From Escherichia coli (GTDB lineage Bacteria > Pseudomonadota > Gammaproteobacteria > Enterobacterales > Enterobacteriaceae), in the NCBI RefSeq assembly GCF_003018255.1, contig NZ_CP027440.1: a stretch of 64,000 bases of DNA. The stretch is one strand, 5' to 3'. Below are positions 32,590-62,947 of this stretch, piece after piece; within the stretch, counting starts at the first letter, position 1; each line of letters begins with the position of its first letter. The position numbers and the translations under genes were made by a program. The notes under the pieces were generated by a model that searched no databases, was not told the DNA's origin, and saw only the letters and a list, made by a program, of their open reading frames with translations.

Positions 32590-32674
32590 GCCGAAGTGGC
32601 GAAATCGGTAGACGCAGTTGATTCAAAATCAACCGTAGAAATACGTGCCGGTTCGAGTCCGGCCTTCGGCACCA
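32590..32674 (+). tRNA. leuX: tRNA-Leu (anticodon CAA)
   Basis: 85-nt sequence GCCGAAGTGGCGAAATCGGTAGACGCAGTTGATTCAAAATCAACC...GGTTCGAGTCCGGCCTTCGGCACCA with cloverleaf arms and encoded CCA. Confidence 0.95.
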
Positions 32675-53255: not shown

Positions 53256-54203
53256 ATGAGAAAAATTCTTTTCTTCCTGCTGTTGATGATAGCCGTCCTG
53301 CCGGAGGTTCAGGCCACCTGTTCGTTCTACGGTGGTGTGACATCAGAAGTATCGGGTTACCTGAATTTCGGCAACGTGGTTATCCAGCGGGATGCACAGG
53401 TCGGCAGCACGATTGCCACTGCCATTACAGGGGCATACAACAATGGCGACGGCATTGCCGGGTGTAAGCGGGAGGCCTGGACCGCCCGCTGGGAACTGAC
53501 GCAATGGGGGACGCTGAGTGGCTATGGGAATGGTGTCTACAACACCAACCTGCCAGGGGTAGGATTACGTCTGAGTGCGGCCTCGACAGGTAAAACATTG
53601 CCCTATGAAACCAGCTACGCCTACAACGCTGGCGGCACCTGGGTATCCATTCCCGGTGATGGCATCAAGGGCGAGCTTATCAAAACCGGGGATATCACCA
53701 GCGGTACATTAACGGACGGTGTGCTGGCGCGCGCTTCGGTAGTGAATCAGTTTTATTTTGCCAACGTCACGTTGAACGGGATGAACACAGTGAAATCAGA
53801 AGCTTGTACTGTGACCACGCCCTCTGTTGATGTCCCGATGGGGGATCACGATAAAAGCGAATTCAGTGGTGCGGGATCTTCAACCGACTGGGTGAGCTTT
53901 GATATTGGTTTGAGCTGCGATGTCGGGGCGAGAATAAACGTACGTATCGATGCCACTGCGGATGCTTCCGCCGGTTCGCAAGGCGTCATGCTGATTGATA
54001 GCGGCGGGGCGTCTGGCGTGGGGATACAACTTCATTACCGCCCGGATGATGCCGCTGTCCAGTACGGTCAGGAACGGTTTTACTGGCAGTCGGTATATGG
54101 TGACGAGATCGTGCAGCTTAAGGCGCGATATTACCAGACTGCAGGCTCGATCACGCCAGGTGCGGCAAACGGTACGGCGACGTTTACGATGAGTTATAAA
54201 TAG
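53256..54203 (+). CDS. Fimbrial adhesin-like two-domain subunit (paralogue 2)
   Basis: 315 aa; C-terminal half aligns with paralogue 1 (…QLKARYYQTA…ATFT.SYK), N-terminal half diverged. Confidence 0.7.
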   Translation: MRKILFFLLLMIAVLPEVQATCSFYGGVTSEVSGYLNFGNVVIQRDAQVGSTIATAITGAYNNGDGIAGCKREAWTARWELTQWGTLSGYGNGVYNTNLPGVGLRLSAASTGKTLPYETSYAYNAGGTWVSIPGDGIKGELIKTGDITSGTLTDGVLARASVVNQFYFANVTLNGMNTVKSEACTVTTPSVDVPMGDHDKSEFSGAGSSTDWVSFDIGLSCDVGARINVRIDATADASAGSQGVMLIDSGGASGVGIQLHYRPDDAAVQYGQERFYWQSVYGDEIVQLKARYYQTAGSITPGAANGTATFTMSYK

Positions 54204-56650: not shown

Positions 56651-57541
56651 ATGATTTCACAATGTTTTGACTCCCGATTTTATACCTTTAAGGTGGAATC
56701 ACTGGTGTATGCCAGAACGCTGCCGGTTAATGTTAAATTCAGTACGAAGTACAAACAAATTAAAGCCTCTGTCGATGAAATTGGGTTAATTGAACCCATT
56801 GTGGTTTATATCAATGACGCCAATGATAAAGTCATTCTGGATGGACATCTTCGCGTTGAAGTTTTGAAAGAACTCGGAATAACTACTGCTCATTGTCTGA
56901 TATCCCCTGTGGAGGATACATATTCATATAACAAACGTGTTAGTCGCCTTACCATTGTGCAGGCCCAAAACATGCTGCTTAAAGCGGTTGAATCTGGCGT
57001 TTCAGTTGAAAAACTATGCGCCGTACTGGGTGTCACGCCAGATACGCTGATTGGTAAACTGAAAATTTCTGATGGCATTGCCCCTGAAGTCATGGCGTTA
57101 CTGGCAGAAAAAAATGTACCGCAGACCATTTTCTCTGTGTTGAAAAAACTAAAGTTCTATAAGCAGATAGAAATGGTTAACACCATGATCAGTATTAATA
57201 ATTTCACCCGCAAATTTGCGATGTCGATGCTGCATGCCGTTGCCCCTGAACATCTTGTAGCGCCTAAAAAAGATGCCAGCAGAGAAACAGATATCAGAAA
57301 AAATCTCGAAAGACTGGAAAAAGAAATGGCTTCCGTTCAGGTGGAAACGCAGCATCTTCAGGATGAATATGCTGAGAATAACCTTCGGCTGGTTATCATT
57401 AAAAATCACATTGAACGTCTGCTGGCGAACGGTCAGGTACTTAACTGGCTTTATGATAACCATCAGGAGTACCTTTCTGTGCTCAAGCAAATCTCGGGGC
57501 TGGATGATTTGAATAAGCTTGGCCAGACAATTGAGGAATGA
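56651..57541 (+). CDS. ParB-like protein, second paralogue
   Basis: Start ATG 56651 with GGGGGAG RBS, 1 nt after previous stop; VILDGHLRVEVLKELG ParB/Srx-like motif. Confidence 0.6.
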   Translation: MISQCFDSRFYTFKVESLVYARTLPVNVKFSTKYKQIKASVDEIGLIEPIVVYINDANDKVILDGHLRVEVLKELGITTAHCLISPVEDTYSYNKRVSRLTIVQAQNMLLKAVESGVSVEKLCAVLGVTPDTLIGKLKISDGIAPEVMALLAEKNVPQTIFSVLKKLKFYKQIEMVNTMISINNFTRKFAMSMLHAVAPEHLVAPKKDASRETDIRKNLERLEKEMASVQVETQHLQDEYAENNLRLVIIKNHIERLLANGQVLNWLYDNHQEYLSVLKQISGLDDLNKLGQTIEE

Positions 57542-57740
57542 CACATTTTTAAAGCAAGGACTGCTGTTTTACAGATTGCCACTATGATGGGATGCACTGA
57601 GAGAGGAGGGCGTGCTGGTGGTTGACGTGATTCAACTGGTGCGGAAAATCTTGCTCAAAGGACGATGGCTTAAAATCAAGTTGCTGTTTCAAAAATGAAA
57701 AAGTAGATTTACATCCACTTTTCTTACTGAGGTAAAAATA

Positions 57741-58199
57741 GTGCATATAGATGCGGATTTCATAAGCTTGAGCACATTGGTGGCTAATCAACAAGCTGCA
57801 AAATGGGCGGGGGTTGCTGCTATTGCTGCCTGTTTGACGTTTGTTGTGACAACGATAGGTTTACTACTTGCTTGGCGGTCGTTGCATCAGTGGAAGCCTC
57901 AATACAAAGAAAACTCTAGACTTCTCCTAATCGAAGCTTTAATCGCATTTCAGAAATGTTTAATAACTATACCAAAAAATCTCGATAACGATCCCACCTA
58001 TCAAAGCCGAAAGGAATTTTTGAAGGCAAGTACTGAAGTTGAGCTAAGAGGACAAATATATCTTAAGCAACACAGCAACGAAAAATTAAAAGATGAATTA
58101 GCAAATCTCAGGAGTAAATGTGCAGAATTTGTTGGTGGTAAGGTGACTAAACCTGAACTGTCATTCATCTCAGCAATAATATTACTCATTGAAGTATAA
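57741..58199 (+). CDS. Hypothetical small membrane protein (152 aa, GTG start)
   Basis: AT-rich ORF with one predicted TM helix (AAIAACLTFVVTTIGLLLAW). Confidence 0.4.
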   Translation: MHIDADFISLSTLVANQQAAKWAGVAAIAACLTFVVTTIGLLLAWRSLHQWKPQYKENSRLLLIEALIAFQKCLITIPKNLDNDPTYQSRKEFLKASTEVELRGQIYLKQHSNEKLKDELANLRSKCAEFVGGKVTKPELSFISAIILLIEV

Positions 58200-58301
58200 T
58201 AGATTCTGGGCTAACACCAATCGGTTACCCGGTTGGGATATCGCTTCCGGGTAACCTGTGGAAAGGCAAAAGCCACTCCACAGGTTGCCCGAGCATATCG
58301 A

Positions 58302-59093
58302 TTACATGTTTGCGTCTTTATTTAACGCATATTGCCAGTTAGCTGCATCCAGCTTTCTCAGCAACGCGCAAAGCACATCCACCAGACAGGCGAGGATCCG
58401 CTGGCCTTTTTCCGCCGTGGCGCAGCGCGGATCGCCGGTTGCTCCGGTGGCGCTGATTTCCCCGATATCCCAGATCCGGTTCACGCCATAATCAGCGAAC
58501 ACCTCCACCGGGATCTGTTTCTGCGCATATTTCAGTTCCACCAGCTCCGGAATCAGCGCCATCATGACGGACGTTTCGCCCTCGCCGCCGTGTCCTAGTC
58601 CGGTGTTATCCCATGAGTCGAAAAATCCCTTCCCGAGATGATGTCCCACCAGATCCCACCACGCCGGAACCACGACAATCGCTGCCTGCGTATGTCGGGC
58701 CTTCACATTGCGGGCGGCGATTTCAATCGCCGGAATATTACCGTCATGGCCGTTAATCACCAGGATCCGGCGAATACCGTGGTGCAGCAGGCTGATGAAG
58801 ATATCTTCCGCCAGCGCGATATTGGTCTCGTAGCGTAGGGTGACCGCCAGTGGATAGGCATTGTAGTGAACGGATGTGCCGAACGGCGTGCAGGGCAGCA
58901 CAAGGGTATTATCCACCCGCTGCGCCACCCGGCAGGCGACGATTTCGGGTACAAACATATCGGGGCCGAGTGGCAGGTGATCGGCGTGGTTCTCACAACT
59001 GCCGAAGTTGACGATAGCAGTGAGTTCCTTACCAGACTGCAACAGCTCGCGGATTTCCCGGCCAGTCAGTTCATTGAGCATGACTTTTTTCAT
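58302..59093 (-). CDS. Creatininase (creatinine amidohydrolase) family protein
   Basis: Product recognised as creatininase-fold family; start MKKVMLNELTG; overlaps permease stop. Confidence 0.65.
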   Translation of the reverse strand: MKKVMLNELTGREIRELLQSGKELTAIVNFGSCENHADHLPLGPDMFVPEIVACRVAQRVDNTLVLPCTPFGTSVHYNAYPLAVTLRYETNIALAEDIFISLLHHGIRRILVINGHDGNIPAIEIAARNVKARHTQAAIVVVPAWWDLVGHHLGKGFFDSWDNTGLGHGGEGETSVMMALIPELVELKYAQKQIPVEVFADYGVNRIWDIGEISATGATGDPRCATAEKGQRILACLVDVLCALLRKLDAANWQYALNKDANM

Positions 59094-60429
59094 CGGACAG
59101 CCTCCTGTTTTTTCGGACGACAAAGATGTAGTACGCGCTGGCGAGGGCCAGCCAGATCAGGACGGTAACCAGGGTAATGCCGCCGCCGTCGGTGAAAAAT
59201 TGCCCGGCCATGATCAGCGCAATCAGCCCCACGGTGAGTGGCTGGATGTAGCGGGCGGCCGGAGCCTTGTATTTCAGCGTTCCGTCGTGCAGGGCTATTC
59301 GGTGCAGGGTGGGCTGGCTTAAGGCAATCATCAGCCAGGTGAACAGAAAGCCGAATCCGGAAATCCCGGCGAGGATGACATACGCATCTGGCGAGAGAAT
59401 GGCGATGATGACGCCGGTAAACAGCACCAGGCTGCTGGCAAGAATGGCGTTATCCGGTGTTTTATGTGCCGGGTGCAGGCGGGCAAACCAGGCCGGGAAA
59501 TAGCCGTCAGACGCCATGGCGTGCAGCATCCGCGAGGTGGCGTAAACCCCGGTATCGATGCAGGAGAGCGCGGCGGTCAGCACCACAAAGTTCATGATAT
59601 GCCGCGCCATATGGCCACCGAGAATGCCGGAAGCTTCGACATACGGGCTGCTGCTGACACCTGCCTGCTGCCAGGGGAGAACGAGCAGCAGAACGGTCAA
59701 TGAGCCGACATACAGCAACAGGATCCGCACCACGGTGCCACGCAGCGTACGAGGAATATCACGCTGTGGGTTCTCGCTTTCACCCGCGGCGGTGCCGATG
59801 GCCTCTGTCCCGCCGAAAGAGAAAATCACCATTAACATCGCGCCGAGAAATCCGGGCAGCCCGCCAGCAAAAAAGCTGCCGCTGTCGGTCGGATGACTGA
59901 TGCTGGCGGGTGAGGCGTTATCCAGTCCCAGGCTGTAGCAGCCCGCGACGATAAAGGCCAGCAGCGCCACGACTTTCACCAGGCTCAGCCAGAACTCCAC
60001 TTCACCGAAAAAATGAACGCCGACCATGTTGATGGCAGTCAGCGACGAAGCGATCACCAGGCAAAACAGCCAGACGGGGACTCCGGGAAACCACAGGTTC
60101 AGGAAGGTGCCTGCAGCGATGGCCTCCGACGCCGGGCCAATCAGGAAGGCCAGCCAGTAGGTCCACCCGGTGATAAAGCCACACCATGGGCCAAAGGCGG
60201 TGCGGGCATAGGATTCAAAGGAACCGGAGACGGGCCTGGCGACCGCCATTTCGGCAAGCAACAGCATAATGAACAGGGTGATGACACCGCCGATAAGGTA
60301 GGCCAGCACCACCGACGGCCCGGTACGGGCAATGGCCGCGCCTGCGCCGAGGAAAAATCCGGCACCAATCACGCCTCCCACGGAAATCATCGTCAGGTGA
60401 CGGGCTTTCAGACTTCTGTTGAGTTCCAT
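59071..60429 (-). CDS. APC-family amino acid permease
   Basis: 452 aa multi-TM protein, start MELNRSLKARHLTMISVGGVIGAGFF. Confidence 0.8.
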   Translation of the reverse strand: MELNRSLKARHLTMISVGGVIGAGFFLGAGAAIARTGPSVVLAYLIGGVITLFIMLLLAEMAVARPVSGSFESYARTAFGPWCGFITGWTYWLAFLIGPASEAIAAGTFLNLWFPGVPVWLFCLVIASSLTAINMVGVHFFGEVEFWLSLVKVVALLAFIVAGCYSLGLDNASPASISHPTDSGSFFAGGLPGFLGAMLMVIFSFGGTEAIGTAAGESENPQRDIPRTLRGTVVRILLLYVGSLTVLLLVLPWQQAGVSSSPYVEASGILGGHMARHIMNFVVLTAALSCIDTGVYATSRMLHAMASDGYFPAWFARLHPAHKTPDNAILASSLVLFTGVIIAILSPDAYVILAGISGFGFLFTWLMIALSQPTLHRIALHDGTLKYKAPAARYIQPLTVGLIALIMAGQFFTDGGGITLVTVLIWLALASAYYIFVVRKNRRLSDEKSHAQ

Positions 60430-60472
60430 AATGTCTTCTCTTTTGTTGTTGTGGATGGATTCAAGGCAGCGC

Positions 60473-60847
60473 TTATGGCCGTCCCTCCTCAATCAGCAGT
60501 TCACCGTACAGGTCGTGAAGTTTAGGGATTGGGCCGGAGAGATGAACGGCTCCCGAATGGCAGGCATTCAGGCTGCCGTTAAACACCATGGTCAGGTGGC
60601 CAAGTTCAAACAAAGACTGCTGTGCCTCTTTACCCACGGCGGTCACCAGGTAGTCATGGCTCGCCAGCAGCAGCCGATCGCCGGGCAGGATCAGCAGGTC
60701 GTCTTCGCGGAATGAGGGTTCCAGCGACAGGGAATAGTCCAGGCAGTCTTTCGGTCCGTTGCTGTCAAAGGTGATAAGCGTCCTGTCTGCCAGTCCGTCG
60801 GCGACAAACAGCCCGATAGCAACGATGCGTGCGCAGTAGGTCATCAT
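60473..60847 (-). CDS. Hypothetical protein (124 aa), first gene of permease/creatininase operon
   Basis: ORF immediately upstream of permease on same strand. Confidence 0.4.
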   Translation of the reverse strand: MMTYCARIVAIGLFVADGLADRTLITFDSNGPKDCLDYSLSLEPSFREDDLLILPGDRLLLASHDYLVTAVGKEAQQSLFELGHLTMVFNGSLNACHSGAVHLSGPIPKLHDLYGELLIEEGRP

Positions 60848-61065
60848 GGCTCGTTCTCCCGTTTGTCGGGCATGAGAGTACGGCCTGGTGTAGGTGAGCA
60901 GGCATGTAGCCTGAATAGGTGAATAAAGCCTTCAGTCCGGGAGGCCGGGTGAAGGTGGCCTCCGGTTGTAAGAGCGATGGAGCAAGGGTGTGGTTCGGTG
61001 TGCATAAACAACTCTCCTGTCAGGTGTCGTTGATTAATGCGTCCTGCCACTCACAGCGCGGGTCG

Positions 61066-61341
61066 TTATGTCCCGGAGTTTTCTGTTGTTGTCATGAGGT
61101 GAAGCGGTTTACGGGGTTCACGTTTATTTCCCGTATTGAGGTAACGTTCCGGCCAGATTTCTGACGGATGCTTTCCCAGCGCAATGGCAATCAGCCACTC
61201 ACCTTTCGGCCACGGTCGGTTCAGGGCATTCGCCAGCGTTGACGAGGCCAGTCCCGCTTCCCGCGAGAGTTTCGCCAGACTGGTGCCGCGCTTGTGTAAG
61301 GCGGCAATGATATCGGCGGGGTGCCAGTCTTTTTTAGTCAT
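61066..61341 (-). CDS. Nlp/Ner-family DNA-binding protein
   Basis: WHPADIIAALHKRGTSLAKLSREAGLASSTLANALNRPWPKGEWLIA resembles E. coli Nlp and phage Mu Ner. Confidence 0.75.
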   Translation of the reverse strand: MTKKDWHPADIIAALHKRGTSLAKLSREAGLASSTLANALNRPWPKGEWLIAIALGKHPSEIWPERYLNTGNKREPRKPLHLMTTTENSGT

Positions 61342-61448
61342 TCCGTTTACCTCTATTGTTGACTATGAGTCACGAATGTATGCTAGCACGCTTTTTATGT
61401 GACTCATAGTCCGTGGACTGATAATCAACGAAGATTGATGCTGGCTAG

Positions 61449-61712
61449 ATGGAAAAGACGGGATCAATCAAAAAGGTACTGGGTAAAAGAATCAGGGCTC
61501 TACGCCGTGAGATGGACCTATCCCAGGAAGCTTTAGCCGACAAATGCGGTATCGATCGCACCTATATGAGTGGAATTGAGCGAGGAGTAAGGAACCCCAC
61601 GCTTGTTGTCATTTGTGCAATCTCGGACGGTCTGGGGATGGATCTTAGCCATTTATTTATGTTTGACGATGGCGCAGAAAAGGACGCCGAATCAACGAAG
61701 TGTGACTCATAG
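61449..61712 (+). CDS. XRE-family HTH regulator (paralogue A)
   Basis: 87 aa; HTH segment LSQEALADKCGIDRTYMSGIERGVRNPT. Confidence 0.7.
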   Translation: MEKTGSIKKVLGKRIRALRREMDLSQEALADKCGIDRTYMSGIERGVRNPTLVVICAISDGLGMDLSHLFMFDDGAEKDAESTKCDS

Positions 61713-61751
61713 TCCGTGGTCTGATAGACAACGTAAGTTCATTTTATCTGG

Positions 61752-61976
61752 ATGAAAAATACATCCAGTATTCAGGCGCAGTTTGGCGCACATCTCAAAA
61801 AACTCAGACTCCAGTCGGGCCTGTCTCAGGAAGCATTCGCGGATAAGTGTGGTCTCGATCGTACTTATGTGAGCGGTATTGAGCGGGGAGTAAGGAATCC
61901 AACCCTTGAGGTGATAAGTGTTTTAGGAAAAGGGTTGGACATGGACATCAAAGAATTATTCAACTTTGAAAGATAG
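61752..61976 (+). CDS. XRE-family HTH regulator (paralogue B)
   Basis: 74 aa; near-identical HTH segment LSQEAFADKCGLDRTYVSGIERGVRNPT. Confidence 0.7.
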   Translation: MKNTSSIQAQFGAHLKKLRLQSGLSQEAFADKCGLDRTYVSGIERGVRNPTLEVISVLGKGLDMDIKELFNFER

Positions 61977-61978
61977 GT

Positions 61979-62923
61979 TTATCTATTAGTAGCAACTCTA
62001 TCCGCAGCAGTACGGGTAACTTGATTTCCAACATCCCAGCCGTTTTCATCTGGGAGTGACATCCCATCCATTGGCATTAGGATAAAACCACCAATAGTTG
62101 GTCCAAATGACTCAGTAGTGTTAATTCCTGCATAGCTTGTTCTGATAATATTTTCATTCAAATTGGTCAAAAATGATATTCGAGTACCAAGTGGGTGCGC
62201 GGTTACCATTTGGATGTATCCACCAATAGTATTGACTGTTTCTTGGTTAATCCAATTATTCAAAGCAATAAACGGGGTACGCCACCAATTTATTGTGTTA
62301 GGAGTAAATTGTTGCCTGGTATTCTCTATAAACTCATTAAGTTCATGCAAGTTATCACCTAATAAAACAGGTCTGCCTGTTGATAAATTTTGAATATCTT
62401 CAATCTGGAGGTTGGCTGGGTGCTCAATAGAGTTATTGAGTTTTATAATTTTGTAGGTTTGTGTTCTCCAGCAAAAACCAAAAATTATCATCTGTATTCT
62501 TACTGCTTGGGGAAAGGATTGGCCGATATCAGACATATATTGCTCGGCAATATTTTTTGCTAATGAAGCTATTTCATTAAGACTTGGGAATGCTTCGGTC
62601 GATATTTGTTGTTCTGGATTATTGTTCGCAATCTCATGAAGTCTTGCTAATGATACTGCAAGCATTTCTTTGACATTAATTCCAATCATTGTACTTCCTG
62701 CAAATCCGAAGCCAAATTCGAATATTTTTTGCGGGTGAATTCGATAAACGTCCGAAGAGCGAATAACTGATACGGGGATTGAGAATAATTTCGGACAATG
62801 GTCAGTTAGTCTGCTATTTTGCTGAGTGATTCTTGAGTCGCTGACTGCCCAAATACTATCGCTTTCCTCTCTATTAAACCAACATGCAATTGCGGTCATA
62901 AGGTTTTTCCAGTTATTTAACAT
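61979..62923 (-). CDS. Hypothetical protein (314 aa), AT-rich
   Basis: Long ORF in low-GC DNA convergent with the XRE pair; no recognised motif. Confidence 0.5.
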   Translation of the reverse strand: MLNNWKNLMTAIACWFNREESDSIWAVSDSRITQQNSRLTDHCPKLFSIPVSVIRSSDVYRIHPQKIFEFGFGFAGSTMIGINVKEMLAVSLARLHEIANNNPEQQISTEAFPSLNEIASLAKNIAEQYMSDIGQSFPQAVRIQMIIFGFCWRTQTYKIIKLNNSIEHPANLQIEDIQNLSTGRPVLLGDNLHELNEFIENTRQQFTPNTINWWRTPFIALNNWINQETVNTIGGYIQMVTAHPLGTRISFLTNLNENIIRTSYAGINTTESFGPTIGGFILMPMDGMSLPDENGWDVGNQVTRTAADRVATNR

Positions 62924-62947
62924 TAATGCGAATAGCTTAGCATATTT

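What the first reader, a model, noticed from the sequence alone, without database searches (positions are those of the whole stretch)
61342..62923. Tandem XRE regulator paralogues with triplicated operator-like sequence, adjacent to an unassigned 314-aa protein
Two small XRE HTH genes (87 and 74 aa) lie in tandem with near-identical HTH segments. The sequence GTGACTCATAGTC occurs upstream of the first gene as an inverted pair (61354-61366 and 61389-61401) and again at about 61700-61712 between the two genes, indicating duplication of a gene-plus-operator unit. Convergent with them is a 314-aa ORF in AT-rich DNA with no motif I recognise. Small XRE regulators commonly gate defence or toxin genes.
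Basis: partly seen in the sequence, partly recalled or inferred. Interest (0 to 1): 0.45.

Follow-up and report, generated by a model that had tools for sequence, protein, structure and literature searches.

The report
Controller-gene pair beside proteasome-like defence candidate
Two small regulator genes of the kind that normally time restriction enzymes sit, with their classic DNA-binding sites but no restriction enzyme, on an E. coli conjugative element next to a swappable gene slot that here holds an uncharacterised proteasome-like enzyme, a plausible new phage-defence gene.

Summary
GTGACTCATAGTC occurs exactly three times (61361-73 inverted, 61399-411, 61702-14), and a 303-bp gene-plus-operator unit is duplicated.

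The two XRE proteins belong to the restriction-modification controller (C) protein family. The repeat is a canonical C-box: each gene has a bipartite OL-CGTG-OR operator exactly 48 nt before its ATG. A solitary box sits in front of a divergent Ner-like gene. No restriction or methylase gene is present.

The Ner/C cassette, with the same operator geometry, recurs in about 60 loci of Enterobacterales. The tandem form is an old duplication.

The DNA right after the second C gene is a low-GC, swappable slot. The same ICE carries a RES toxin gene there in four E. coli genomes. Related cassettes carry PD-Lambda-4, Dsr1 or a kinase. More distant relatives precede Hachiman or true R-M genes.

It is not a conserved partner of the XREs and has no C-box. 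Direct gating is unsupported. A defence role is plausible but untested.

The parts
61066..61341 (-). Ner-like (Nlp/SfsB-type) winged-HTH gene, 91 aa, transcribed divergently from XRE1. Conserved partner of the C-like gene.
   Evidence: Pfam HTH_35 E 8e-36. NCBIfam SfsB E 2e-29, below the family cut-off. Found next to the C-like gene in most of the 61 aligned intergenic regions.
61361..61373 (-). Solitary C-box (O_ner). Perfect palindrome core GACTATGAGTC at 61361-61371, 20 nt upstream of the ner-like ATG. Proposed repressor site over the ner-like promoter start.
   Evidence: Conserved as tGTnGAcTATaAGTCAC, usually 39-43 nt from the OL box. The function is inferred by analogy with the single OM site of Esp1396I.
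61397..61431 (+). Bipartite C-box operator of XRE1. OL GACTCATAGTC at 61401-61411, spacer CGTG at 61412-61415, OR GACTGATAATC at 61416-61426.
   Evidence: 27 of 35 positions match the crystallised C.Esp1396I operator. Fits the consensus GACT-N3-AGTC-N4-GACT-N3-AGTC. Box start to ATG is 48 nt.
61449..61712 (+). XRE1, C-protein-family HTH, 87 aa. Its last codons and stop (TGT GAC TCA TAG) lie inside the OL box of the second operator.
   Evidence: Pfam HTH_3. Best solved relatives are C.AhdI and C.BclI. PADLOC Control_protein E 6e-20. dN/dS 0.04 against Citrobacter.
61700..61734 (+). Bipartite C-box operator of XRE2. OL GACTCATAGTC at 61704-61714, spacer CGTG at 61715-61718, OR GTCTGATAGAC at 61719-61729.
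   Evidence: 30 of 35 positions match operator 1, and 27 of 35 match the Esp1396I operator. Box start to ATG is 48 nt.
61752..61976 (+). XRE2, C-protein-family HTH, 74 aa.
   Evidence: Best solved relatives are C.AhdI E 2e-12, C.Esp1396I and C.BclI. PADLOC Control_protein E 4e-20. dN/dS 0.03.
61972..62975 (.). Variable low-GC cargo slot between the end of XRE2 and the 3' end of the conjugative ATPase gene.
   Evidence: Homology to E. coli C11 (RES gene in the slot) ends at 61971 and resumes at 62976. Homology to Superficieibacter (PD-Lambda-4 in the slot) ends at 61970. GC is 37.5%.
61979..62899 (-). 306-aa proteasome-beta-like (N-terminal Thr) protein gene. The ORF is open to 62923, but the conserved start is the ATG at 62899.
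62948..64000 (-). 3' part of the ICE conjugative transfer ATPase gene (TraC-like). It lies upstream of and co-directional with the 306-aa gene, 48 nt away.
   Evidence: RefSeq annotation of the identical E. coli locus. TraC_F_IV in the Citrobacter counterpart.

Best explanation
The locus is two separable things that share a chromosomal address on a leuX-side ICE.

(A) A three-gene regulatory cassette: ner-like gene <- | -> C1 -> C2. C1 and C2 are controller (C) proteins of the restriction-modification type. Each is preceded, 48 nt before its ATG, by a bipartite C-box: a strong palindromic OL, a CGTG spacer and a degenerate OR. By analogy with C.PvuII, C.AhdI and C.Esp1396I, a dimer on OL would activate the gene. 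A second dimer recruited to OR, which overlaps the -35 region, would shut it off. That gives delayed, self-limiting expression.

The third, solitary box lies over the predicted start of the divergent ner-like promoter, and OL overlaps its predicted -35. C protein would therefore switch the ner-like gene off, as C.Esp1396I does with its methylase gene. The net effect is an establishment timer after transfer to a naive cell: Ner-like protein early, C proteins late. Because both C proteins keep the same recognition helix and the same OL sequence, they probably cross-regulate.

(B) A swappable cargo slot immediately 3' of C2. Here it holds a stand-alone 306-aa proteasome-beta-like enzyme with an exposed Thr1 nucleophile. 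Its most likely role is as an effector in phage or mobile-element conflict.

In this ICE the C genes do not directly control that gene. At most, unterminated convergent transcription from the C promoters could dampen it. The gene is more likely read from the upstream conjugation operon or from its own weak promoter.

Shown here: family membership of the regulators, operator identity and conservation, absence of R-M genes, slot polymorphism, fold and active-site conservation of the 306-aa protein, and its genomic company. Inferred: DNA binding, activation/repression logic, promoter positions, leaderless transcripts, enzymatic activity and any defence function.
For: Regulators:
- The best solved relatives of both XREs are C.AhdI, C.BclI and C.Esp1396I, E 1e-7 to 1e-12. 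The best PADLOC model is Control_protein, E 1e-20.
- The operators match the published C-box consensus. They are 27/35 identical to the crystallised Esp1396I operator, including the conserved central GT and the flanking TG..CA.
- In 60 of 61 related loci the box starts exactly 48 nt before the ATG. OL, the CGTG spacer and the O_ner box are the most conserved intergenic positions.
- C-box cores occur only at these three sites in 64 kb plus 20 kb.
- More distant relatives (51-57% identical) sit in canonical C->REase<-MTase or C->type IIG arrangements.
- A single repressing site at the partner promoter, and interference by the distal site in divergent systems, are documented for Esp1396I and EcoRV.
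- dN/dS is 0.03-0.04 for both C genes.

Slot:
- The same ICE backbone carries a co-oriented RES-domain gene instead of the 306-aa gene in 4 E. coli genomes.
- Related tandem cassettes are followed by PD-Lambda-4 A+B (E = 0), by Dsr1 (1e-108) plus a HEPN protein, by a PD-T4-6-like kinase, or by a STAND-like NTPase.
- Single-C relatives precede Hachiman HamA/HamB or a SIR2-like protein.
- The 306-aa gene has dS 1.6 between the E. coli and Citrobacter ICEs, while its flanks have dS 0.19-0.31. This points to allele replacement.

306-aa protein:
- The N-terminus is Met-Thr/Ser in 118 of 127 distant relatives (including 3 that start VT). D29, K45, G76, G189 and G234 are kept in 98-100%.
- Contexts: next to CBASS-type genes in Photobacterium, Pantoea, E. 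coli and Vibrio; next to an RT-SLATT pair; next to a CHAT protease and PIN/MazE; next to CbtA/CbeA beside a P4-like Psu; inside P2-like prophages between structural genes.
Against: - No experiment here shows DNA binding or regulation. The sigma-70 scan reported none of my proposed promoters, which score 8/12 against a threshold of 9/12.
- In Xenorhabdus the Ner/C pair sits among core-type genes (efp, epmB-like, sugE, TauE, a nucleoside hydrolase) with no obvious cargo. The cassette may therefore have a function unrelated to defence.
- Several slot occupants have no PADLOC or Pfam hit, and adjacency does not prove regulation.
- For the 306-aa protein, no sequence-level link to proteasome, HslV or Pfam models was found.
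- The assignment of D29/K45/G76 to Asp17/Lys33/Gly47 rests on conservation and secondary-structure order, not on a superposition I could inspect.
- PADLOC has no model for it, and it is absent from 50,697 phage genomes.
- The defence role rests only on guilt by association.
Confidence: 0.6

Rival explanations
1. The XRE pair is the dedicated regulator (or antitoxin) of the 306-aa gene.
For: The genes are immediately adjacent: the stops are 2 nt apart and no strong terminator lies between them, so C-driven transcription would run antisense into the 306-aa gene. The block XRE1-XRE2-306 is kept together in the E. coli and Citrobacter ICEs. In four E. coli genomes the slot holds a co-oriented RES toxin gene 52 nt after XRE2, which looks like a regulator-toxin operon.
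Against: The orientation is convergent. There is no C-box near the 306-aa gene's 5' end or anywhere else. Twelve other genomic contexts of the 306-aa family lack these XREs. Of 79 related-cassette loci, only the copy of the same ICE has the gene. The 306-aa allele has been exchanged independently of the regulators: dS 1.6 against 0.2-0.3.
Confidence: 0.15
2. The XRE genes are decaying leftovers of a lost type II restriction-modification system (orphan C genes) with no present function.
For: They are C-family proteins with canonical C-boxes, and no REase or MTase gene lies within +/-20 kb. Distant relatives are still attached to R-M genes. A Rahnella relative is followed by an HsdR fragment.
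Against: The cassette, with Ner, is conserved in about 60 loci of many genera, with an invariant 48-nt operator-to-ATG spacing. Purifying selection is strong, dN/dS 0.03-0.04. Both ORFs and all three boxes are intact in 37 or more E. coli genomes. The tandem paralogues are old and both are retained.
Confidence: 0.08
3. The divergent Ner-like/XRE pair is an immunity-type bistable switch of a mobile element, analogous to Mu c/ner or lambda cI/cro. It would control excision, transfer or cassette mobility rather than cargo expression.
For: The architecture is a divergent HTH pair sharing operators. Ner is the Cro-like regulator of Mu (my own knowledge of Mu, not tested here). The cassette lies on an ICE between conjugation genes. 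In Pectobacterium and one other genus a tyrosine integrase lies two genes away. The slot boundary is sharp, which suggests recombination.
Against: In Xenorhabdus and Photorhabdus the pair sits in apparently stable core-type surroundings. No C-box is found near any ICE transfer or integration gene. No recombination-site motif is shared after XRE2.
Confidence: 0.15
4. The 306-aa protein is not a defence effector. It is instead an accessory protease, amidase or ligase of mobile elements (for example one processing a transfer or phage protein), or a catalytically silent scaffold.
For: It lies directly downstream of, and co-directional with, the conjugative ATPase gene, 48 nt away. Proteasome homologues have diverse functions, including a specific ligase, connectase. 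No PADLOC model matches it.
Against: Its neighbours change completely between genomes while defence genes recur: CBASS-type genes four times, RT-SLATT, CHAT, toxin-antitoxin pairs, and P2/P4 insertion sites. In the same ICE it is replaceable by a RES toxin gene. The active-site residues are nearly invariant, which argues against a silent scaffold.
Confidence: 0.3

Closest known systems
R-M controller proteins C.Esp1396I, C.AhdI, C.PvuII and C.BclI, with their C-box operators
   Same: - Small single-domain HTH proteins. They are the best sequence matches among solved structures.
- Operator GACT-N3-AGTC-(CGTG)-GACT-N3-AGTC, with conserved central GT and flanking TG..CA. It is 27/35 identical to the Esp1396I operator.
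- A strong distal box and a degenerate proximal box.
- An extra single site at the partner gene's promoter, like OM of Esp1396I.
   Different: - No restriction endonuclease or methyltransferase gene is present.
- The partner gene is a Ner-like regulator instead of a methylase.
- Two paralogous C genes lie in tandem, each with its own operator. The stop codon of the first lies inside the second operator.
- The subfamily signature is ERGVRNPT, against ERG(K/Q/D)RN(V/I)S in the R-M-linked members.
Divergent C-dependent R-M systems of the EcoRV type
   Same: Divergent promoters share the distal C-box, so a bound C protein interferes with the opposite promoter.
   Different: The opposite gene here encodes a DNA-binding protein, not a protective enzyme. 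It also carries its own additional box.
Phage Mu c/ner (and Nlp/SfsB of E. coli)
   Same: A Ner-family HTH_35 protein is transcribed divergently from a repressor-type HTH gene.
   Different: The opposing regulator is a C-protein homologue with C-boxes, not a Mu-type repressor. There are no phage genes. Ner binding sites were not identified.
Defence-associated regulators BrxR/CapW (WYL) and CapH/CapP
   Same: A conserved small regulator is found beside many different defence systems. PADLOC capH matches weakly, E 1e-8.
   Different: The protein family is different (C-type XRE without a sensor domain), and the operator is different. The logic predicted here is timing and homeostasis rather than damage-induced derepression.
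Proteasome beta subunit, HslV, Anbu, BPH and the 22 computational proteasome-homologue families of Fuchs, Alva and Lupas 2021 (PMC8665760)
   Same: - Thr at mature position 1 without a propeptide. The paper says this holds for all the new homologues.
- Conserved Asp, Lys and Gly in the order of Asp17, Lys33 and Gly47.
- A C-terminal extra region, as described for some of those families.
   Different: - No detectable sequence similarity to HslV or 20S models.
- About 100 extra residues.
- A stand-alone gene on mobile elements and in defence islands, with no HslU-like ATPase partner.
- I could not test whether it equals GPH, DPH or RPC of that paper, because no sequences were available.
Xre-RES toxin-antitoxin modules
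   Same: In four E. coli genomes the same slot holds a RES-domain gene directly downstream of, and co-oriented with, XRE2.
   Different: As I recall, Xre antitoxins of RES toxins carry a C-terminal toxin-binding domain. XRE2 is a 72-74-aa bare HTH. In the window itself the slot gene is not RES and is convergent.

Membership tests
R-M controller (C) protein | Small (about 70-100 aa) single-domain lambda-cI/XRE-type HTH protein | tested here: met
   87 and 74 aa. Pfam HTH_3 covers the whole domain, E 2e-13 and 2e-15.
R-M controller (C) protein | Closest characterised relatives are C proteins | tested here: met
   The top solved-structure hits are C.AhdI, C.BclI and C.Esp1396I. The top PADLOC model is Control_protein, E 1e-20.
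R-M controller (C) protein | Own gene preceded by the C-box operator GACT-N3-AGTC-N4-GACT-N3-AGTC | tested here: met
   Both genes have it, 48 nt before the ATG. The operators are 27/35 identical to the Esp1396I operator. The consensus is taken from PMC2504287 and PMC2175313.
R-M controller (C) protein | Encoded within an R-M system (upstream of or overlapping the REase gene, with an MTase gene adjacent) | tested here: not met
   No REase or MTase is annotated within +/-20 kb. Neighbouring proteins give no PADLOC R-M hit. Only distant relatives have R-M partners.
R-M controller (C) protein | Concentration-dependent autogenous activation then repression | not testable with these tools
   Needs reporter fusions or in-vitro transcription.
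Ner/Nlp (HTH_35) regulators | Match to the family profile over its full length | tested here: met
   PF13693 E 8e-36, profile positions 1-74 of 75. The SfsB equivalog scores 101 bits, below its 150-bit cut-off, so it is not SfsB itself.
Proteasome-like (T1, Ntn-hydrolase) superfamily | Beta-subunit alpha-beta-beta-alpha sandwich fold | tested here: met
   [not shown]
Proteasome-like (T1, Ntn-hydrolase) superfamily | N-terminal nucleophile (Thr or Ser) at mature position 1 | tested here: met
   All close homologues start MT. Among 127 distant relatives, 108 start MT, 7 MS and 3 VT. Removal of the initiator Met is assumed.
Proteasome-like (T1, Ntn-hydrolase) superfamily | Equivalents of Asp17, Lys33 and Gly47 | tested here: inconclusive
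   D29, K45 and G76 are 98-100% conserved. They lie at the end of S2, the start of S3 and the end of S4, as in beta subunits. No residue-level superposition was available.
Proteasome-like (T1, Ntn-hydrolase) superfamily | Sequence-profile match to proteasome or HslV families | tested here: not met
   No Pfam hit. No PDB hit by sequence or profile.
Proteasome-like (T1, Ntn-hydrolase) superfamily | Ring or double-ring self-compartmentalising assembly | not testable with these tools
   Only a monomer was modelled.
GPH, DPH or RPC families of Fuchs et al. 2021 | Sequence clustering with the published representatives (WP_152342571.1, WP_074989469.1, WP_140207863) | not testable with these tools
   The accessions are listed in the paper, but their sequences are not retrievable here. 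None appeared among the cluster members read. RPC is said to lack helix H2, whereas this model has H1 and H2.
Known anti-phage defence systems (PADLOC 2.0) | Profile match of the 306-aa protein to a catalogued defence protein | tested here: not met
   0 families at E <= 0.1.
Type II toxin-antitoxin (Xre-type antitoxin plus toxin) | Regulator/antitoxin and toxin co-transcribed as an adjacent pair that co-occurs across genomes | tested here: not met
   The pair is convergent here. There is no co-occurrence outside this ICE.

The most novel reading that the evidence does not exclude
A restriction-enzyme-type establishment timer (C proteins with C-boxes, here doubled and paired with a Ner-like early gene) has been detached from R-M systems. 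It now serves as a conserved platform flanking a sharply bounded, exchangeable slot for toxic immunity genes: RES, PD-Lambda-4, Dsr1, kinases, and Hachiman in single-C relatives. The 306-aa occupant of this ICE's slot would be the founding example of a new single-gene anti-phage or anti-plasmid system. Its effector is a self-contained proteasome-like threonine hydrolase with no ATPase partner.
Probability: 0.3. Interest if true: 0.8.

Novelty: new variant of a known kind. Interest (0 to 1): 0.6.

Why it matters
C proteins are textbook regulators of type II restriction-modification systems. A 2025 paper on defence-island regulation still describes them only in that role. This locus shows the same proteins and the same operators working without any R-M genes. 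They are conserved across many Enterobacterales and sit next to a hot-swappable slot that holds experimentally validated non-R-M defence systems in relatives. If the timer logic carries over, it offers a general answer to how toxic immunity genes are installed safely after horizontal transfer. It also gives a simple sequence flag for finding new cargo: a Ner-like gene, a C-box and a 48-nt spacing.

The cargo here is a proteasome-fold enzyme with an intact catalytic set, and it recurs in defence islands. That makes a concrete, cheap experiment possible. It would connect the poorly understood bacterial proteasome homologues with immunity.

Tried and rejected
- Sequence-level identification of the 306-aa protein. 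Pfam, NCBIfam, PADLOC, and PDB by phmmer and by profile all gave nothing useful. The NCBIfam hit PRK04164 (E 0.001, 18 bits against a 179-bit cut-off) was dismissed.
Not significant; only the GFAG motif aligned.
- A restriction-endonuclease reading of the 306-aa ORF. I considered this because of the C genes and rejected it on the fold result.
- A conserved partner gene. The 200- and 205-aa ORFs upstream of two homologues are unrelated to each other.
- A further C-box elsewhere in the window or ICE. None found.
- Rfam scan of 57000-64000. No RNA family.
- Sigma-70 and terminator scans. No promoter-like site at the positions I propose, and only weak hairpins.
- A recombination-site motif after XRE2. 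None is shared.
- The afdb50 fold library was unavailable. The viral structure library gave one uncharacterised phage protein and nothing informative.
- E. coli strain IH5 (hit H68) looked like a new context but is a chimeric assembly of gene fragments. I discarded it.
- Matching accessions to the published GPH, DPH or RPC representatives. No match among the members read.
- The dN/dS for the ATPase fragment against Citrobacter was misaligned and I ignored it.
Full report
**Where the locus is.** The last 31 kb of the window belong to an integrative conjugative element (ICE) of the PFGI-1/ICEclc/SPI-7 type in the E. coli chromosome. A tRNA-Leu(CAA) gene lies at 32590-32674. The stretch 60900-63100 is 100% identical to two complete E. 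coli genomes and about 97.6% identical to 35 more, always chromosomal. In the RefSeq annotation of the identical locus, the finding lies in a cargo region that interrupts the conjugation genes. That region holds a fimbrial operon, recombinase and ParB-like genes, a creatininase, an amino-acid permease and a PTS IIA-like gene. Then come three 'helix-turn-helix' genes, a 'hypothetical protein' and the conjugative transfer ATPase.

**Checking the observation.** GTGACTCATAGTC occurs exactly three times in the window: 61361-61373 (inverted), 61399-61411 and 61702-61714. A given 13-mer is expected 0.002 times in the window on both strands.
- The direct duplication has a 303-bp period with 77% nucleotide identity.
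- The proteins are 58% identical, with DRTY(M/V)SGIERGVRNPT in common.
- Both ORFs match HTH_3 over the whole domain. PGAP's shorter XRE1 start would cut the domain.

**What the regulators are.** Among all solved structures, the best matches of both XREs are the restriction-modification controller proteins C.AhdI, C.BclI and C.Esp1396I, with E 1e-7 to 1e-12. In PADLOC the best model is 'Control_protein', E about 1e-20.

The literature gives the C-box as GACT-N3-AGTC-N4-GACT-N3-AGTC, with a highly conserved central GT and conserved flanking TG and CA. It gives the crystallised C.Esp1396I operator as ATGTGACTTATAGTCCGTGTGATTATAGTCAACAT. The window sequences compare as follows:
- 61397-61431 reads ATGTGACTCATAGTCCGTGGACTGATAATCAACGA.
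- 61700-61734 reads GTGTGACTCATAGTCCGTGGTCTGATAGACAACGT.
- Each is 27/35 identical to the Esp1396I operator.

Each operator has a perfect distal palindrome (OL), the CGTG spacer and a degenerate proximal box (OR). This is the arrangement that gives activation at low and repression at high C concentration in PvuII, AhdI and Esp1396I. The third copy is a solitary perfect palindrome 20 nt upstream of the ner-like ATG. This resembles the single OM site through which C.Esp1396I represses its methylase gene. In divergent systems such as EcoRV, the distal box also interferes with the opposite promoter.

No methyltransferase or endonuclease gene is annotated within 20 kb on either side. C-box cores occur nowhere else in the window or in the next 20 kb of the ICE.

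**The cassette is conserved.** A search of one genome per species with XRE2 returned 79 loci. tBLASTn, C-box scanning and ORF clustering show the divergent Ner-like/C-like pair in roughly 60 loci. The genera include Xenorhabdus, Photorhabdus, Pectobacterium, Dickeya, Brenneria, Lonsdalea, Serratia, Erwinia, Pantoea, Citrobacter, Salmonella arizonae and Gilliamella.

The intergenic regions share one plan: an O_ner box, usually 39-43 nt to the OL box, then OL-CGTG-OR, then the ATG.
- In 60 of 61 loci, the box start lies exactly 48 nt before the ATG.
- The consensus is atGTGACTnATAGTCCGTGGtCngATAAgcAaCA, with near-maximal information at OL and the spacer.
- There is no Shine-Dalgarno sequence.
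- Several C transcripts are reported to be leaderless, so I infer leaderless transcription starting at or near the ATG. This is unverified.

My promoter proposals are:
- For the C genes, a -35 overlapping OR half-box 2A.
- For the ner-like gene, a -35 GTCACA inside OL, a -10 TACATT at 61380-61375, and a start inside O_ner.

Each scores only 8 of 12 consensus positions and was not reported by the scanner.

Tandem C genes occur in 13 loci. In a neighbour-joining tree, the first copies from the E. coli-type and the Pectobacterium-type cassettes cluster together, apart from the second copies. The duplication is therefore old and both copies are retained. dN/dS between the E. coli and Citrobacter ICEs is 0.04 for XRE1 and 0.03 for XRE2.

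The stop codon of XRE1 lies inside OL of the second operator. A C protein bound there could also act as a roadblock to read-through from the first promoter. A roadblock mechanism is described for C.Kpn2I in a title seen. I did not test this.

**What lies next to the cassette.** More distant relatives of XRE2 (51-57% identical, from other phyla) sit in canonical arrangements:
- C -> REase (E 1e-105) <- MTase.
- C -> 222-aa ORF <- C5 MTase.
- C -> type IIG enzyme.

Serratia and Citrobacter relatives (58-61% identical, same 48-nt spacing) precede Hachiman HamA/HamB (E 1e-118 and 1e-279), an MTase, or a SIR2-like protein.

The Ner/C/C cassettes are followed by these genes:
- PD-Lambda-4 A and B, convergent, E = 0, in Superficieibacter.
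- Dsr1 (E 1e-108) plus a HEPN protein, in Serratia.
- A PD-T4-6-like or mad6-like Ser/Thr kinase, in Brenneria.
- A STAND-like NTPase, in Dickeya.
- Unknown proteins in the remaining cases.

The most telling case is in E. coli itself. Four genomes carry the same ICE backbone with a co-oriented 329-aa RES-domain gene in place of the 306-aa gene (Pfam RES E 3e-14). Homology with the window stops at 61971 and resumes at 62976. Homology with Superficieibacter stops at 61970. The slot has 37.5% GC against 55-58% in its flanks.

Between the E. coli and Citrobacter ICEs, the flanking genes have dS 0.19-0.31. The 306-aa gene has dS 1.6 with dN/dS 0.08. An old, diverged allele has therefore been swapped in while the protein stayed under purifying selection.

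In Xenorhabdus the pair sits among core-type genes (efp, an EpmB-like radical-SAM gene, an SMR gene, TauE, a nucleoside hydrolase) with no obvious cargo. This warns against reading the cassette only as a defence regulator.

**The '314-aa' protein.**
- *Family and start.* It belongs to a family with 27 clusters at 90% identity in the word-indexed search. A full profile search gave 625 representatives at E <= 1e-3 and 320 at E <= 1e-10. All are named 'hypothetical protein', and they reach as far as Vibrio, Cupriavidus, Acinetobacter and Anabaena. Every close homologue starts MT(A/S)(I/V)xCW, so the start is the ATG at 62899, giving 306 aa.
- *Active site.* In 127 distant full-length relatives the N-terminus is MT in 108, MS in 7 and VT in 3. 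Thr10 (window ORF numbering) is kept in 116 of 128 aligned sequences, Asp29 in 126, Lys45 in 128, Gly76 in 127, Gly189 in 127 and Gly234 in 126. These residues lie before S1, at the end of S2, at the start of S3 and at the end of S4 just before H1. That is the order of Thr1, Asp17, Lys33 and Gly47 in the proteasome, the catalytic set named. The local motifs WAVSDSR, PKLF and GFAGS resemble AADSRAT, KK(V/I) and G(T/F)AG of beta subunits and HslV. That comparison is from my memory of those sequences.
- *Limits.* No sequence method links the family to proteasome models, so the relationship is at fold level. Fuchs, Alva and Lupas (2021) described 22 computational proteasome-homologue families, among them proteobacterial GPH, DPH and RPC, some with extra C-terminal domains. 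I could not test whether this family is one of them.

**The company the protein keeps.** It has no conserved neighbour. Its surroundings are:
- CD-NTase plus Cap15 genes in Photobacterium and Pantoea.
- A SMODS gene, a KAP NTPase and recombinases in E. coli.
- A helicase cluster, a nucleotidyltransferase pair and a SLATT plus reverse-transcriptase pair on a Vibrio conjugative plasmid.
- A CHAT protease, PIN/MazE and a WYL protein in Cupriavidus.
- CbtA/CbeA next to an integrase and a P4-like Psu gene in Citrobacter braakii.
- Positions between conserved structural genes of P2-like prophages in Providencia and Rahnella.
- A prophage end beside an integrase in E. coli.

It is absent from 50,697 phage genome records. 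It occurs on six plasmids, five of them conjugative. This is the typical distribution of an anti-phage 'moron'. It is only association.

**How it most likely works.** The cassette is best read as an R-M-type establishment timer that has lost its R-M genes. In a naive cell the ner-like promoter fires. C protein then accumulates from a weak basal promoter and binds O_ner and OL. This shuts off the ner-like gene and activates the C genes. At higher levels C fills OR and limits itself. With identical recognition helices and OL sequences, the two paralogues should cross-regulate.

Where cargo is co-oriented (RES, Dsr1, kinase, Hachiman), it probably rides on the C transcript, as REase genes do. In this window the cargo is convergent. 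It lacks a box and has only 48 nt between it and the upstream ATPase gene. It is therefore probably expressed with the conjugation operon or from a weak promoter of its own. The only plausible C influence is antisense or collision from unterminated C transcription: the stops are 2 nt apart and no convincing terminator is present.

The 306-aa protein is predicted to be an active N-terminal-threonine hydrolase. I rate a role in phage or mobile-element conflict at roughly even odds.

**Verdict.**
It is approximately right about the neighbourhood.
- It is unsupported on direct gating of the adjacent gene.
- The regulators are a new configuration of a well-known system.
- The neighbouring gene is an uncharacterised proteasome homologue with a testable immunity hypothesis.

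Noticed in passing
window 32590-32674: A tRNA-Leu(CAA) gene is the only tRNA in the window. Element-type genes follow it, so it looks like the attachment side of the ICE (leuX-type site).
   Followed up: partly
window 47444-54203 (L001 6545-13304): The ICE cargo region carries a complete chaperone-usher fimbrial operon. It is preceded by a tyrosine-type DNA invertase gene, which suggests a phase-variable fimbria carried by the element.
   Followed up: no
window 58302-60847 and plasmid hit H26: Downstream of, and co-directional with, the ner-like gene lie a PTS IIA-like gene, an amino-acid permease and a creatininase-family gene. A Salmonella plasmid shares only the ner-like plus PTS part (window 60909-61332, 87% identical), with homology ending at the ner-like start codon. 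The ner-like gene may head this metabolic operon, which would then fall under C-box control.
   Followed up: partly
L100 3624-4613 (E. coli C11, C10, A31, GPEC709): In four E. coli genomes the slot holds a 329-aa RES-domain gene co-oriented with XRE2. The adjacent conjugative ATPase gene is truncated, so that ICE copy is probably transfer-defective.
   Followed up: partly
L035, L041, L047-L052, L055, L056, L070 (Photorhabdus): Photorhabdus carries two C-like genes 0.5-3 kb apart. The first has no Ner partner. Variable genes lie between them, including a CcdA antitoxin homologue and a glycosyltransferase. This looks like an 'opened' version of the tandem, with cargo between the copies.
   Followed up: no
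L034 3644-5012, L062: In Pectobacterium and Zophobihabitans a tyrosine integrase (Pfam Integrase_1 / Phage_int_SAM_2) and a conserved 104-172-aa unknown ORF lie just beyond the ner-like gene. This hints that integrase, Ner, C genes and cargo may move together as a small island.
   Followed up: no
L015 (JAEWTL010000048.1): A 3.9-kb contig labelled 'MAG: Bacillota bacterium' is 92-100% identical at protein level to this E. coli ICE segment. It is almost certainly a binning contaminant.
   Followed up: no
L101 (E. coli IH5, NZ_CP168949.1 5106069-5120813): This stretch of a 'complete' genome is a patchwork of truncated, unrelated gene fragments: fliH, bla, tssL, wcaD, folP and others. It appears to be an assembly artefact.
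   Followed up: no
L004 3556-6010 (Cupriavidus sp. CuC1): The proteasome-like homologue is followed, co-oriented, by a 156-aa unknown ORF and a 684-aa CHAT (caspase-like) protease. This could be a multi-protease module.
   Followed up: no
L001 30327-30846 and 36987-38792: The ICE also carries a RelE/ParE-CopG toxin-antitoxin pair inside the conjugation gene block, and a topoisomerase III gene annotated as a pseudogene with an internal stop.
   Followed up: no
window 61690-61700 versus 61423-61433: AATCAACGAAG, the 3' end of OR1 plus its flank, recurs just upstream of OL2 inside the XRE1 coding tail. It may be a footprint of the recombination that created the tandem.
   Followed up: no
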